From contig JALWDV010000417.1 in NCBI GenBank assembly GCA_027036755.1, forward strand, positions 1-37,268: a DNA stretch of 37,268 bases, written 5' to 3'. The position numbers and the translations under genes were made by a program. This document shows, piece after piece, positions 216 through 2,676 of the stretch (the stretch's first letter is position 1; each line of letters starts with the position of its first letter). The notes beneath the pieces are model-generated. The model had not been told where the DNA came from. It ran no database searches and saw only the letters and a program-made list of their open reading frames with translations. Source of the stretch: Anaerolineae bacterium (GTDB lineage: Bacteria; Chloroflexota; Anaerolineae; J102).

Positions 216-1946
216 ATGTCTAACGTCGTAACCGCCGAAGAAACAAAACTCATCAGCCCGTATGGGGGGGCGCTCGTCGATTTGATGGCTCCTGCTGATG
301 AGTTGGATCATCTGAAAAGATACGCGGGCAAGCTGCCCTCCATCCAGCTATCCGAGCGCTCTCTTTGCGATCTCGAATTGCTGGCGACCGGCGCTTTTTC
401 GCCGCTGGATCGTTTCATGGGCGAGCAGGATTATCAGAGCGTGCTGGATGACATGCGCCTGAGCAATGGCGCGATTTTCCCTATCCCCATCACGCTGCCC
501 GTGGAGCCGGGGCCGGACATCCGCCTGGGGCAGGAGATCGCGCTGCGGGATCGGAAGAACAACATCCTGGCCCTGATGACCATCGAGGAGATCTACGAGT
601 GGGATCTCAACGAGACTGCGGAGAAGGTCTTTGGCACGACCGATCTGCGTCATCCCCTGGTGGCGGAAATGCACCGCTGGGGCAAGCTGAACATCTCGGG
701 CCGGCTGCGCGTGCTGCAATTGCCTTTGCGCTACGATTTCCGGGAGCTTCGTCGCACGCCCGCCGAGACGCGTCGGCTGCTGGCGGCTGCGGGCAACAGC
801 AATGTCGTGGCCTTTCAGACGCGAAATCCCCTGCACCGGGTGCATGAGGAGCTGACCAAGCGGGCGGCGGCCTCGGTGGATGGCACGTTGTTGCTGCATC
901 CGGTGGTGGGCATGACCCGCCCGGGCGACGTGGATCATTACACCCGGGTGCGCACTTACAAGGTGCTGACCGAGAGATATTACGAGCCGGGCAGCGTGGT
1001 GCTGAGTCTGCTGCCTCTGGCCATGCGGATGGCGGGCCCGCGCGAGGCTGTCTGGCACATGCTCATCCGCCGCAATTATGGCGCCAATCATTTCATCGTG
1101 GGCCGCGATCACGCGGGGCCGGGCAAGGATTCCAAGGGCAATCCCTTCTATGGCCCTTATGACGCCCAGGATTTGGCCAATGCTTTCAGCGAGGAGTTGG
1201 GCGTCAAGGTGATTCCCTTCAAGATGCTTGTGTATCTGCCCGACGAGGATCGCTACGAGGAGATCGACAAGGTGGACGGCAATGTCCGCACCGCGTCTAT
1301 CTCGGGCACCCAGGTGCGGGATGAGTATTTGAACAACGGGCGTTCGTTGCCCGAATGGTTCACCCGGCCCGAGGTGGCCGAGATTCTGGCCGATAGTTAT
1401 CCGCCCAAGCATAAGCAGGGCTTCATCGTGTGGTTTACGGGCCTGAGCGGCTCGGGCAAATCGACGACGGCCGAGATTTTGACCACCCTGCTGCTGGAGC
1501 ATGGCCGCCAGGTGACCCAGCTCGATGGCGACGTGGTGCGCACCCATCTTTCCAAAGGATTGGGGTTCAGCAAGGAGGATCGGGACATCAACATTCGCCG
1601 CATTGGGTTCGTGGCGGCCGAGATCGTGCGGCACCGGGGCGTGACTGTGTGCGCCGCGGTCAGTCCCTATCGGGCCACCCGCAATGATGTGCGCAACATG
1701 GTCGGTTCCGACAACTTTATCGAGGTCTTCGTGGATACGCCTTTGGAGGTGTGCGAGGAGCGGGATGTGAAGGGGTTGTACGCCAAGGCCCGCCGCGGCG
1801 AGATCAAGGGATTCACCGGCATCGATGATCCTTATGAGCCGCCCCACAACCCCGAGATCGTGCTGGATACAGTCAATCACACTGCTGAAGAAAACGCTCA
1901 CCAGATCGTGGAATATCTCATCGAACGCGGTTTTCTGAGACAGTAA
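216..1946 (+). CDS. Bifunctional sulfate adenylyltransferase (ATP sulfurylase) / adenylylsulfate (APS) kinase, i.e. a PAPS synthase
   Basis: 576-aa ORF. The N-terminal two thirds carry the ATP-sulfurylase motifs [13 protein letters not shown] and GRDHAGPG. The C-terminal ~180 aa carry the APS-kinase P-loop [15 protein letters not shown] lies at 197-202, upstream of ATG 216. Confidence 0.93.
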
Positions 1947-1963
1947 TCCCTTTCGTTATCCTG

Positions 1964-2016
1964 AAAGGCATGGGGCGATGGCCGTCTCTTGGGCGGGCGC
2001 AAACCATGCCTTTTTT
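1964..2016 (+). terminator. Possible intrinsic terminator after the PAPS synthase gene
   Basis: aaaggcatgg (1964-1973) pairs with ccatgccttt (2004-2013) and is followed by a T6 run (2011-2016). The 30-nt loop is long for a canonical terminator. Confidence 0.4.
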
Positions 2017-2043
2017 CATCCGCCCTGAAGCGGGAGTCGAAGC

Positions 2044-2676
2044 ATGAAACTTTTTTCCTCGTTGTTTGGCAAACAAAAGGCTGATGCTGGAAATGAAGAG
2101 AAGCGGGCCGTTGTCGTTGTGTCGGGCCTGCCCCGGTCGGGCACCTCGATGATGATGAAGATGCTGGAGGCGGGGGGCATGGCGTTGATTATCGACGGCA
2201 TTCGCACCGCAGACGAGGACAATCCCAAGGGCTACTATGAATTCGAGCGGGTGAAGCAGTTGGATAAGGGAGATGTGGCCTGGGTGGCCGAGGCTCAGGG
2301 CAAAGCTGTCAAGGTTATCTCCGCACTGCTGGAGTATCTGCCGCCCGATTATGAGTATAAAGTGCTGTTTATGAACCGAAAGATGCCCGAGGTGCTGGCT
2401 TCTCAGCGCAAGATGCTGGCGCGCCGGGGCGAGAAATCGGAGATCAGTGATGAAAAGCTGGCCCAGTTGTTGCGCAAACATGTGCAGCAGGTGAAGCGCT
2501 GGCTGACCCAACAGCCCAATTTCGAGATGCTGGACCTGGACTACAACGCCATGTTGCTCGATCCTGAACCCTGGGCCGAAAAGGTCAACGCATTCCTGGG
2601 CGGTGGCCTGGATGTGCAGGCCATGGTCGAGGTGGTGGACCCTAATCTTTATCGCAATCGGGCCAAGGATTCCTGA
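2044..2676 (+). CDS. Small PAPS-dependent sulfotransferase family protein
   Basis: 210-aa ORF. It has an N-terminal 5'-phosphosulfate-binding loop (VVVSGLPRSGTSMMMKML) and a basic central segment (NRKMPEVLASQRK). It lies directly downstream of the PAPS synthase. GGGAG sits 8 nt upstream of the ATG. Confidence 0.75.
   Translation: MKLFSSLFGKQKADAGNEEKRAVVVVSGLPRSGTSMMMKMLEAGGMALIIDGIRTADEDNPKGYYEFERVKQLDKGDVAWVAEAQGKAVKVISALLEYLPPDYEYKVLFMNRKMPEVLASQRKMLARRGEKSEISDEKLAQLLRKHVQQVKRWLTQQPNFEMLDLDYNAMLLDPEPWAEKVNAFLGGGLDVQAMVEVVDPNLYRNRAKDS

What the first reader, a model, noticed from the sequence alone, without database searches (positions are those of the whole stretch)
216..2676. Dedicated PAPS synthase plus two sulfotransferases predict a sulfated polysaccharide
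A fused ATP sulfurylase/APS kinase (216-1946) opens the locus. It is followed by a small sulfotransferase (2044-2676). A second sulfotransferase (26763-27638) is translationally coupled (ATGA) to the WbuB-like L-FucNAc transferase and precedes the initiating PGT.

Embedding the PAPS supply and two acceptor-specific sulfotransferases in a Wzx/Wzy locus implies sulfation of the repeat unit at two positions or on two different glycans. Sulfated bacterial surface polysaccharides are documented in only a few systems, e.g. rhizobial Nod factors/LPS and some cyanobacterial exopolysaccharides. The acceptor sugars here are not predictable from sequence.
Basis: inference. Interest (0 to 1): 0.6.

Follow-up and report, generated by a model that had tools for sequence, protein, structure and literature searches.

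The report
Sulfated surface-sugar genes in Anaerolineae
An uncultured Chloroflexi-type (Anaerolineae) bacterium lacks the genes for turning sulfate into cysteine, yet keeps one enzyme that makes the activated sulfate donor PAPS, placed among cell-surface sugar-polymer genes with two sulfate-transferring enzymes; it very probably makes sulfated surface sugars, a design already shown chemically in marine Vibrio and Cobetia and in cyanobacteria.

Summary
216-1946 is an intact bifunctional ATP sulfurylase/APS kinase. 2044-2676 (ST1) and 26763-27638 (ST2) are PAPS-type sulfotransferases. ST2 overlaps the upstream GT4 gene by ATGA and precedes a small initiating phosphoglycosyltransferase.

New points:
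1. The PAPS synthase is the only copy. The genome has no PAPS/APS reductase and no sulfite reductase, so PAPS can only serve sulfation. That holds genome-wide, because at least three more sulfotransferase genes lie on other contigs.
2. The window holds two complete Wzx/Wzy/PGT sets, so two glycans are more likely than one doubly sulfated repeat.
3. ST2 is an accessory, horizontally acquired gene. In 88 related loci its family sits in a conserved GT4-ST-PGT-aminotransferase-dehydratase module, which sometimes carries its own cysC, cysDN and sulfate-transporter genes. Its glycan role is well supported.
4. ST1 belongs to a very large, uncharacterised, mostly Chloroflexota family of about 200-aa enzymes. 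The family co-occurs with APS kinase (55 of 56 genomes) but has varied neighbours, so its acceptor may not be this glycan.

PAPS genes plus sulfotransferases inside a glycan cluster is a published hallmark (Vibrio KMM 8419, Cobetia marina, synechan). This is a new member of a known kind, of moderate-to-low interest.

The parts
216..1946 (+). Bifunctional ATP sulfurylase (Sat, PUA_2 + ATP-sulfurylase) / APS kinase (CysC): PAPS synthase, the only copy in the genome
   Evidence: Pfam. NF004040 864 bits. Motifs in the translation. Single copy in the 3.8-Mb assembly.
9..31 (+). Terminator-like hairpin upstream of the PAPS synthase gene (9-bp GC-rich stem, then ACUUUUCC)
   Evidence: Fold -19 kcal/mol, z = -2.0; sequence. 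Weak evidence only.
1963..2014 (+). Terminator-like hairpin followed by a U-run in the 97-nt spacer between the PAPS synthase gene and ST1
   Evidence: Fold -27.8 kcal/mol, z = -1.05, not exceptional. Pattern scan hit at 1995-2011.
2044..2676 (+). ST1: compact (210 aa) cytoplasmic PAPS-type sulfotransferase of a large, mostly Chloroflexota family
   Evidence: Pfam above cut-offs. Invariant PSB/PB motifs. Sulfotransferase fold. No TM segment. Family co-occurs with APS kinase in 55 of 56 genomes.
2683..5037 (+). Signal-anchored TPR protein (784 aa), 6 nt downstream of ST1, with an internal 576-nt tandem duplication; possible extracytoplasmic scaffold of glycan assembly
   Evidence: TPR families. 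N-terminal hydrophobic segment. Repeat 3837-4136 vs 4413-4712 at 99%. Kept at this position in close relatives at 36-87% identity.
4998..6670 (+). GFO/IDH/MocA oxidoreductase and hexapeptide acetyltransferase (WbpB/WbpD-like sugar-modifying pair), conserved left flank of glycan set A
   Evidence: Pfam. 76-94% identical in same-genus loci.
6680..14250 (+). Glycan set A: Wzx flippase (6680-7987), Wzy-type polymerase (8039-9379), three GT4-type glycosyltransferases, large WbaP-type PGT (12787-14250)
   Evidence: Pfam. 9-10 TM-like segments in Wzx and Wzy. Wzx is only 53-62% identical in same-genus loci, so the variable region starts here.
16891..21578 (+). Glycan set B, variable low-GC part: Wzx (16891-18231), two unassigned soluble proteins, 10-TM protein (20295-21578, probable Wzy)
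   Evidence: Pfam (no families for three ORFs). GC 0.37 against about 0.59. TM counts.
21581..26766 (+). FnlA/FnlB/FnlC-type UDP-L-FucNAc synthesis genes and a WcaI/WbuB-family GT4 glycosyltransferase (25501-26766)
   Evidence: Pfam. NCBIfam WcaI family 185.8 bits, below its cut-off of 276. The same order occurs in L084 and in about 10 of 43 related loci.
26763..27638 (+). ST2: cytoplasmic PAPS-type sulfotransferase, ATGA-coupled to the GT4 gene; accessory, horizontally acquired
   Evidence: Pfam 84.9 bits. Fold. Overlap. GC 0.47-0.52. Found in 1 of 28 genomes of the order and 1 of 301 of the phylum sample. Conserved module in 88 related loci.
27655..28251 (+). Small (PglC-type) initiating phosphoglycosyltransferase of set B
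   Evidence: Bac_transf 185.7 bits. A homologue lies directly downstream of ST2 homologues in 28 of 34 loci.
29158..32312 (+). DegT-type sugar aminotransferase (29158-30285) and PglF/WbpM-type 4,6-dehydratase (30357-32312): synthesis of a 4-amino-4,6-dideoxy-HexNAc-type first sugar
   Evidence: Pfam. Downstream of ST2 homologues in 25 of 34 (DegT) and 16 of 34 (PglF) loci.

Best explanation
The organism is an Anaerolineae/Caldilineales-like MAG. It takes up sulfate, possibly through two DASS-type transporter homologues found elsewhere in the genome.

Its single Sat/CysC fusion converts sulfate to APS and then to PAPS. No reductive sulfate pathway is detectable, so PAPS serves only as sulfuryl donor.

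Both sulfotransferases are soluble and cytoplasmic. Sulfation must therefore occur on nucleotide-sugar or undecaprenyl-PP-linked intermediates before Wzx flipping and Wzy polymerisation.

ST2 belongs to glycan set B. It acts on the early lipid-linked intermediate. That intermediate is either the 4-amino-4,6-dideoxy-HexNAc-type first sugar (made by the PglF-like dehydratase and DegT, transferred by the small PGT) or the disaccharide made by the upstream GT4 (here L-FucNAc).

ST1 is a PAPS-coupled 'core' enzyme of this lineage. In this genus it is embedded between the PAPS synthase and glycan set A, and it most likely sulfates an envelope glycan intermediate there.

Shown: gene identities, motifs, folds, absence of the reductive genes from the assembly, phyletic patterns, synteny. 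Inferred: enzyme activities, acceptors, timing of sulfation, sulfate on the final polymer.
For: PAPS synthase intact and single.

No reductive pathway:
- No PAPS_reduct and no NIR_SIR in an assembly rated 100% complete; controls ring in 14 of 14 and 11 of 14 genomes.
- The CysH contig of a same-genus genome has no tblastn match in this genome.
- Across the order, Sat/CysC is in 26 of 28 genomes but PAPS_reduct in only 7 of 28.

ST2 family:
- 8 of 8 context look-ups lie in glycan clusters.
- In 88 loci: small PGT downstream in 28 of 34, DegT in 25 of 34, PglF-like in 16 of 34, GT4 upstream in about 37 of 43.
- Six loci add cysC with a DASS-type transporter, cysD-cysN or a DHH-family protein.

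ST1 family:
- 55 of 56 ST1-positive class genomes have APS kinase, against 81 of 145 ST1-negative ones (p = 2e-10).
- ST1 lies next to Sat/CysC in 14 of 80 loci, and in 10 of the 56 ST1-positive class-sample genomes, which span five families.
- In the same-genus relatives the pair is flanked on both sides by glycan genes.

Other points:
- Neither enzyme has a TM segment.
- Chemically proven precedents have the same gene logic (PMC11641403, PMC11766843, PMC8205485).
Against:
- The assembly has 861 contigs, so absence of cysH/sir rests on completeness estimates and on consistency among relatives.
- Two same-genus genomes have PAPS_reduct hits, one strong and one weak.
- ST1 relatives at about 60% identity mostly sit beside unrelated genes: iron repressor, FeoB, P-type ATPase, McrBC.
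- ST1's nearest structures are peptide and small-molecule sulfotransferases, although fold similarity does not predict the acceptor.
- Terminator-like hairpins flank the synthase gene, so it may be a separate transcription unit.
- No PAP phosphatase was identified: the DHH query found nothing and CysQ was not searched.
Confidence: 0.7

Rival explanations
1. ST1 does not act on the neighbouring glycan. It sulfates one conserved non-glycan acceptor of Chloroflexota (a lipid, metabolite or protein). It sits here only because it is linked to the PAPS synthase gene. Only ST2 sulfates a polysaccharide in this window.
For: - Very high conservation: 62% mean column identity across the class, with a long invariant block VSGLPRSGTSMMMKMLEAGG and DNPxGYxExERVK.
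- Usually single-copy (48 of 51 fully listed ST1-positive genomes); present in 23 of 28 genomes of the order while the adjacent glycan genes vary.
- 63 of 80 related loci show no hit to any other gene of this window within the locus, and the recurrent neighbours there are unrelated functions.
- The nearest folds are Teg12, TPST, SULT and CurM.
- At least 8000 protein clusters, all named ones generic.
Against: - In this genus ST1 is flanked on both sides by glycan genes, and a TPR gene follows after 6 nt.
- Three more distant loci also place it beside a PglF-like dehydratase and a GT4 gene.
- Fold similarity does not define the acceptor.
Confidence: 0.35
2. The Sat/CysC fusion is the first step of ordinary assimilatory sulfate reduction, and the reductase genes are simply missing from a fragmented MAG.
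For: - The assembly has 861 contigs.
- Five genomes of the order do carry strong CysH-type hits.
Against: - Both PAPS_reduct and NIR_SIR are absent at 100% estimated completeness.
- 10 of 12 same-genus genomes and 21 of 28 in the order lack PAPS_reduct, while 26 of 28 keep Sat/CysC.
- None of the six ORFs of the relative's CysH contig matches this genome.
- The gene is embedded in glycan genes.
Confidence: 0.05
3. Sat works in the dissimilatory direction (APS to sulfate plus ATP, in sulfur oxidation), or the fused kinase domain is only regulatory, so little PAPS is made.
For: Sister genera carry an additional stand-alone APS kinase gene directly after the fusion gene. This could mean that the fused domain is not always sufficient.
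Against: - The kinase P-loop and the DGD motif are intact.
- The protein scores as an equivalog.
- There is no NIR_SIR and hence no DsrAB.
- Five sulfotransferase genes above Pfam cut-off in the assembly need PAPS.
- AprAB was not searched.
Confidence: 0.04

Closest known systems
Sulfated capsular polysaccharide clusters of Vibrio sp. KMM 8419 (PMC11641403) and Cobetia marina KMM 1449 (PMC11766843)
   Same: PAPS-synthesis genes and sulfotransferases are embedded in a surface-polysaccharide gene cluster. [quoted passage not shown]
   Different: - Those are Gammaproteobacteria that export CPS by a Kps-type ABC transporter and activate sulfate with cysDN/cysC.
- In Vibrio the cluster genes are second copies. 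In Cobetia the cluster also carries cysQ and a sulfate permease.
- Here the host is a Chloroflexota MAG with Wzx/Wzy assembly and a homo-oligomeric-type Sat fused to CysC. That fusion is the only copy, and the genome lacks sulfate assimilation.
Synechan xss cluster of Synechocystis sp. PCC 6803 (PMC8205485)
   Same: A Wzx/Wzy-dependent cluster with two sulfotransferases of distinct subfamilies (XssA, XssE). The sulfate-to-sugar stoichiometry matches the gene count.
   Different: - The paper text does not mention PAPS or PAPS-synthesis genes.
- It is a cyanobacterial, plasmid-borne cluster under XssQRS regulation.
- Here there are two separate glycan sets, each with one sulfotransferase.
fnlABC-wbuB (wbjBCDE) L-FucNAc modules followed by the initiating transferase and WbpM, as in E. 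coli O26 and P. aeruginosa O11 (own knowledge)
   Same: The gene order FnlA-FnlB-FnlC-GT4, then the initiating PGT, then a PglF/WbpM-type dehydratase.
   Different: - A sulfotransferase is inserted between the GT4 and the PGT.
- The PGT is a small PglC-type enzyme and is paired with a DegT aminotransferase.
Rhizobial NodPQ/NodH and LpsS sulfation (cited in PMC8205485; details from own knowledge)
   Same: A dedicated PAPS supply is coupled to a carbohydrate sulfotransferase acting on a surface or secreted glycoconjugate.
   Different: - NodPQ is a CysDN/CysC-type duplicate in an organism that also assimilates sulfate.
- The acceptors are lipo-chitooligosaccharide or LPS, not Wzy-polymerised repeat units.
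- There is no close sequence relationship: only a 21.7-bit NoeE match for ST2.
Bifunctional Sat/APS kinase proteins, NCBIfam NF004040 (e.g. Aquifex aeolicus; own knowledge)
   Same: The same three-domain architecture, with a score above the equivalog cut-off.
   Different: The context differs: here the protein is the sole sulfate-activating enzyme of a genome without reductive sulfate assimilation.

Membership tests
Bifunctional sulfate adenylyltransferase/adenylylsulfate kinase (NF004040) | Full-length match above the curated equivalog cut-off, with PUA_2 + ATP-sulfurylase + APS_kinase domains | tested here: met
   864.2 bits against a cut-off of 669. All three Pfam domains are present.
Bifunctional sulfate adenylyltransferase/adenylylsulfate kinase (NF004040) | Catalytic motifs: sulfurylase QxRNPxHxxH and GRDHAG; kinase P-loop GxxGxGKS/T and DGD | tested here: met
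   [31 protein letters not shown] and LDGDVVR are read in the translation.
Bifunctional sulfate adenylyltransferase/adenylylsulfate kinase (NF004040) | PAPS formation from sulfate and ATP | not testable with these tools
   Needs an enzyme assay.
PAPS-dependent sulfotransferase superfamily (Pfam PF13469/PF00685): ST1, 2044-2676 | Family HMM above the gathering score; 5'-phosphosulfate-binding loop and 3'-phosphate-binding Arg/Ser; sulfotransferase fold | tested here: met
   - 38.8 and 31.6 bits against cut-offs of 27 and 22.
- GLPRSGTS and R112/S120 are invariant in 38 sequences.
- The top 47 fold hits are sulfotransferases, TM about 0.5.
- There was no significant PDB sequence hit and no NCBIfam hit.
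PAPS-dependent sulfotransferase superfamily: ST1 | Dependence on PAPS, taken here as co-occurrence with PAPS synthesis | tested here: met
   55 of 56 ST1-positive genomes have APS kinase, against 81 of 145 ST1-negative ones; Fisher p = 1.9e-10.
PAPS-dependent sulfotransferase superfamily: ST2, 26763-27638 | Family HMM above the gathering score; PSB/PB motifs; fold | tested here: met
   - 84.9 bits.
- R19-S20-G21 of the GRSGSK loop and R115-D116-G117 plus S123 are invariant in 27 sequences.
- pLDDT 92, TM 0.6-0.65 to TPST.
Carbohydrate (glycan) sulfotransferase | Acceptor is a sugar of the cluster's glycan | tested here: inconclusive
   - ST2: synteny with PGT, DegT, PglF and GT4 genes is conserved in 88 loci, but there is no assay.
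- ST1: neighbours vary outside the genus.
Wzx/Wzy-dependent polysaccharide locus | Wzx flippase, Wzy polymerase and initiating PGT present | tested here: met
   - Set A: Wzx 6680, Wzy_C 8039, Bac_transf 12787.
- Set B: Wzx 16891, 10-TM ORF 20295 (no family hit), Bac_transf 27655.
- A chain-length regulator/BY-kinase was seen only upstream in relative L004.
Sulfated-polysaccharide gene cluster as defined in PMC11641403 | [quoted passage not shown] | tested here: met
   Sat/CysC, ST1 and ST2 lie among glycan genes.
Sulfated-polysaccharide gene cluster as defined in PMC11641403 | Sulfate demonstrated on the polymer | not testable with these tools
   Uncultured MAG; no chemistry available.
Assimilatory sulfate reduction pathway | APS/PAPS reductase (PF01507) and sulfite reductase (PF01077) present in the genome | tested here: not met
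   0 hits for each in the own genome; controls ring in 14 of 14 and 11 of 14 genomes. No tblastn match to a relative's CysH contig.

The most novel reading that the evidence does not exclude
ST2-type enzymes belong to a widespread initiation module, ST-PGT-aminotransferase-4,6-dehydratase. In most loci this module has no PglD-type N-acetyltransferase.

The sulfotransferase could therefore N-sulfate the 4-amino group of the first sugar. That would give a sulfamate (N-sulfo-bacillosamine-like) sugar at the reducing end of each repeat unit, a sugar not described in bacteria.

Alongside this, ST1 would define a minimal sulfotransferase class of about 200 aa with one conserved, still unknown acceptor in Chloroflexota that keep PAPS synthesis solely for sulfation.
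Probability: 0.1. Interest if true: 0.7.

Novelty: new member of a known kind. Interest (0 to 1): 0.35.

Why it matters
Anaerolineae are abundant in marine sediments, sponges, anammox granules and activated sludge. The papers I found treat them as degraders of sulfated polysaccharides (PMC9723792). I found no paper linking them to sulfotransferase-based synthesis.

Here a whole family-level lineage keeps PAPS synthesis (26 of 28 genomes) while mostly lacking sulfate assimilation. It also carries a conserved sulfotransferase. These filaments are therefore candidate producers of sulfated polymers, including the unassigned sulfated glycosaminoglycan-like material in granular sludge mentioned in PMC7356697.

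Practically, ST2 with its conserved initiation module, and the very abundant ST1 family, are defined targets for finding bacterial carbohydrate sulfotransferases. The general design is already published, however, and this scan's own notes list over a thousand similar loci, so the surprise value is limited.

Tried and rejected
- PDB sequence search with ST1 gave only chance armadillo-repeat hits. NCBIfam had no model for ST1 and only a 21.7-bit NoeE hit for ST2. Neither helped with the acceptor.
- Profile-profile comparison of the ST1 and ST2 families gave probability 17%, with only the C-terminal YEDL-type region aligned. They are distinct subfamilies, not paralogues from a recent duplication.
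- A phylum-wide search for ST2 in 301 genomes found nothing but the query. This was useless for context, but it shows that the gene is accessory. Contexts came instead from exact-protein look-ups and a metagenome scan.
- Fold searches cannot discriminate the acceptor class. Peptide, small-molecule, lipid and heparan sulfotransferases all match at similar scores.
- The idea that ST1 is a degenerate APS kinase, replacing the stand-alone cysC that follows Sat/CysC in sister genera, is rejected. The APS_kinase HMM does not hit it, while sulfotransferase HMMs and folds do.
- The promoter/terminator scan of 1-7000 was not above shuffles. The hairpins flanking the synthase gene are only weakly better than shuffled sequence.
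- No PAP phosphatase was found with a DHH query. CysN-query hits were only 26-32% identical to a GTPase-domain query and were not examined further.
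Full report
**1. Observation**

The window is a whole 37.3-kb contig (C417) of a 3.8-Mb assembly in 861 contigs, rated 100% complete with 3.5% contamination. By its nearest public relatives it is an Anaerolineae/Caldilineales-type Chloroflexota MAG.

- 216-1946 encodes a 576-aa protein with PUA_2, ATP-sulfurylase and APS_kinase domains. It matches the NCBIfam equivalog for the bifunctional enzyme at 864 bits, against a cut-off of 669.
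- Its translation shows the sulfurylase motifs [13 protein letters not shown] and VGRDHAG, the kinase P-loop GLSGSGKST and LDGD. I see no sign of the degenerate kinase domains known from some fusions.
- 2044-2676 (ST1, 210 aa) passes both sulfotransferase Pfam models.
- 26763-27638 (ST2, 291 aa) scores 84.9 bits on Sulfotransfer_3.
- The ATGA overlap of ST2 with the GT4 gene is real. A 198-aa Bac_transf phosphoglycosyltransferase follows after 16 nt.

**2. Are the two small proteins really sulfotransferases?**

ST1 has only modest HMM scores, no PDB sequence match and no NCBIfam model. I therefore aligned 38 relatives. The 5'-phosphosulfate loop GLPRSGTS and the 3'-phosphate pair R112/S120 are invariant.

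An AlphaFold model built on that alignment (pLDDT 83) finds only PAPS sulfotransferases among its top 47 PDB matches: Teg12, TPST1/2, SULTs and CurM ST, at TM about 0.5.

ST2 gives a better model (pLDDT 92). Its TM is 0.6-0.65 to TPSTs, with further hits to mycobacterial Stf1/Stf9, NDST and 3-OST.

Neither protein has a hydrophobic segment. The two families are only remotely related to each other.

**3. Is the PAPS synthase 'dedicated'?**

There is none.

The genome also has no PAPS_reduct-family gene (CysH or CysD) and no NIR_SIR sulfite reductase, although both searches ring in the control genomes. The six ORFs of the contig that carries a CysH-type gene in a same-genus genome (G011) have no tblastn match in this genome.

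The pattern holds across the lineage. In the 28 genomes of the order (one family), Sat/CysC is present in 26, including 13 of 13 high-quality ones. PAPS_reduct is present in 7, including 2 of 12 in the genus, one of them weak.

So PAPS is made for sulfation only. It is not dedicated to this locus, though. Three more sulfotransferase genes above the Pfam cut-off lie on contigs C272, C826 and C45. The C272 gene overlaps the end of a third Wzx-type flippase gene.

Two DASS-type transporter homologues (C686, C700) are candidate sulfate importers.

**4. Anatomy of the window**

There are two complete Wzx/Wzy/PGT sets, not one.

- Set A (6680-14250) has a Wzx, a Wzy_C protein, three GT4 genes and a large WbaP-type PGT. 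On its left lie Sat/CysC, ST1, a signal-anchored TPR protein, a GFO oxidoreductase and a hexapeptide acetyltransferase.
- Set B (16891-32312) has a Wzx and three unassigned genes at GC 0.37, one of them with 10 TM-like segments. It continues with FnlA/B/C, a WcaI/WbuB-family GT4, ST2, the small PGT, a TumA/TumE pair, DegT and a PglF-like dehydratase.

In the closest relative (L004, 96-98% identical), a BY-kinase-like ATPase, an epimerase, a NusG paralog and a UDP-sugar dehydrogenase precede Sat/CysC on the same strand. The synthase is therefore internal to a glycan locus, not its first gene.

Within the genus, Sat/CysC, ST1, GFO and the acetyltransferase stay 75-98% identical, while the TPR protein and Wzx already diverge to 36-62% in most relatives. 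These conserved genes form the left flank of a variable region.

Terminator-like hairpins lie on both sides of the synthase gene. They are statistically weak.

**5. ST2: an accessory enzyme with a conserved glycan context**

ST2 is found in no other genome of the order (1 of 28) and in none of 300 sampled genomes of the phylum. It sits in DNA of lower GC content. It nevertheless has more than 2000 relatives in metagenomes, two of which are named as Promineifilaceae and Thorarchaeota. That pattern indicates horizontal transfer.

All eight exact-protein look-ups (45-78% identity) fall in polysaccharide clusters, next to an initiating PGT (in one case with a DegT gene in between).

Across 88 loci with enough flanking sequence:

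- a PglC-type PGT lies directly downstream in 28 of 34 (others have a WecA-type PGT);
- DegT lies downstream in 25 of 34;
- a PglF-like dehydratase lies downstream in 16 of 34;
- a GT4 lies upstream in about 37 of 43;
- FnlABC occurs in only 9-10 of 43.

The constant partner is thus the initiation module, not the L-FucNAc branch. This narrows the likely acceptor to the first sugar, or to the first disaccharide on the lipid carrier.

In six loci the module is followed by a stand-alone cysC. That gene is accompanied by a CitMHS/TrkA-C (Na/sulfate-symporter-like) transporter, by cysD-cysN, or by a weakly matching DHHA1-domain protein. This independently shows that the module needs PAPS.

A hexapeptide acetyltransferase adjoins ST2 homologues in only seven loci. 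This leaves room for the speculative N-sulfation reading, but does not demonstrate it.

**6. ST1: a core enzyme with an uncertain acceptor**

Where sources name the organism, it is Chloroflexota with one exception. Sources annotate the family only generically.

It is present in 23 of 28 genomes of the order and in 56 of 201 genomes sampled from the class, usually as a single copy.

Of the 56 positive genomes, 55 also have an APS kinase, against 81 of 145 negative ones (p = 1.9e-10). The gene lies directly beside Sat/CysC in ten of the 56 positive genomes, spanning five families, and in 14 of 80 public loci. PAPS dependence is therefore well supported.

Its other neighbours vary outside the genus: iron repressor, FeoB, P-type ATPase, McrBC, histidine kinase. 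Only a minority of loci show glycan genes.

I therefore keep 'ST1 sulfates the set-A glycan' as the more likely reading for this genus (about 55-60%). The strong rival is that it modifies a conserved non-glycan acceptor (about 35%).

Earlier notes of this scan on the same family reached the same open verdict. I treat them as leads, not evidence.

**7. Mechanism proposed**

1. Sulfate is taken up.
2. The Sat domain makes APS and the fused kinase makes PAPS.
3. The soluble enzymes ST2 and ST1 sulfate cytoplasmic intermediates. ST2 acts on the Und-PP-linked first sugar or disaccharide of set B.
4. Wzx flips the unit and Wzy polymerises it.
5. PAP is removed by a phosphatase that I did not identify.

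Gene identities, motifs, folds, phyletic patterns and synteny are shown. Activities, acceptors and the presence of sulfate on the polymer are inferred.

**8. Comparison and novelty**

Clusters that combine PAPS genes, sulfotransferases and polysaccharide genes are published with chemical proof for Vibrio sp. KMM 8419 and Cobetia marina KMM 1449. The Vibrio paper calls the combination a hallmark.

Synechan gives the Wzx/Wzy precedent with two sulfotransferases. Pontiella gives another candidate. This scan's own notes list more than a thousand similar loci.

What is particular here:

- the phylum: I found no paper linking Anaerolineae to sulfotransferase-based synthesis;
- the use of a single Sat/CysC fusion in a genome without sulfate assimilation;
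- the lineage-wide retention of that state;
- the conserved ST2 initiation module.

I rate this a new member of a known kind, with interest 0.35.

**9. Limits**

- The source is a fragmented MAG.

Noticed in passing
window 3682-4973 (inside the TPR gene 2683-5037): The TPR gene contains a 576-nt tandem duplication. The 300-nt core copies (3837-4136 and 4413-4712) are 99% identical, and a third, older copy of the flanking 140 nt is 62-73% identical. This is either a very recent in-frame repeat expansion of an exported TPR protein or an assembly artefact.
   Followed up: partly
window 9-31 and 1963-2014: Terminator-like hairpins bracket the PAPS synthase gene, so it may be transcribed separately from the glycan genes on either side. 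Neither hairpin is strongly better than shuffled sequence.
   Followed up: partly
Genome contig C272:2004-4156: A third Wzx-type flippase gene (Polysacc_synt_3, 149.8 bits) overlaps by 4 nt the start of another sulfotransferase gene (Sulfotransfer_3, 69.5 bits). The contig ends there. A third Wzx-type flippase gene with an adjoining sulfotransferase may mark a third sulfated glycan in this genome.
   Followed up: partly
Sister genera of the same family, e.g. G023:C5:56026-58374, G006:C186:6366-8797, G021:C43:11333-13899: A stand-alone APS kinase gene directly follows the Sat/CysC fusion gene, so these genomes carry two kinase domains in tandem. In the window's genus that position is taken by ST1. 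The reason for the redundancy is unknown.
   Followed up: no
L124, L132, L138, L162 (about 4.5-5.2 kb downstream of the ST2 homologue; e.g. L132:12656-15052), L159:13404-16382, L128:3570-5252: In unrelated metagenomic organisms the ST2-type module ends with cysC plus a CitMHS/TrkA-C (Na/sulfate-symporter-like) transporter, or cysD-cysN-cysC, or cysC plus a protein with a weak, sub-threshold DHHA1 match (possible PAP phosphatase). These would be self-contained sulfate supply cassettes.
   Followed up: partly
G002 contigs C18, C19, C26 (same family, genus g2): G002 shows three matched places each for Sat/CysC and ST1 on contigs C18, C19 and C26; the C19 copy is broken into several frames and the C26 ST1 copy is partial with an in-frame TGA. 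These may be decaying duplicates or contamination; the genome is rated 8% contaminated.
   Followed up: no
window 18228-20298: Two soluble proteins (312 and 375 aa) in the GC 0.37 island of set B have no Pfam or NCBIfam match. They are presumably novel glycosyltransferases or modifying enzymes of a horizontally acquired serotype-specific block.
   Followed up: no
ST1 residues 51-80 (window about 2194-2283): The most conserved stretch of the ST1 family after the P-loop (D51, R54, D59-N60-P61, G63-Y64, E66, E68-R69-V70-K71, G76-D77, W80) has low model confidence (pLDDT 51-65). It looks like a flexible, invariant acceptor-binding lid, which would fit one conserved acceptor.
   Followed up: no
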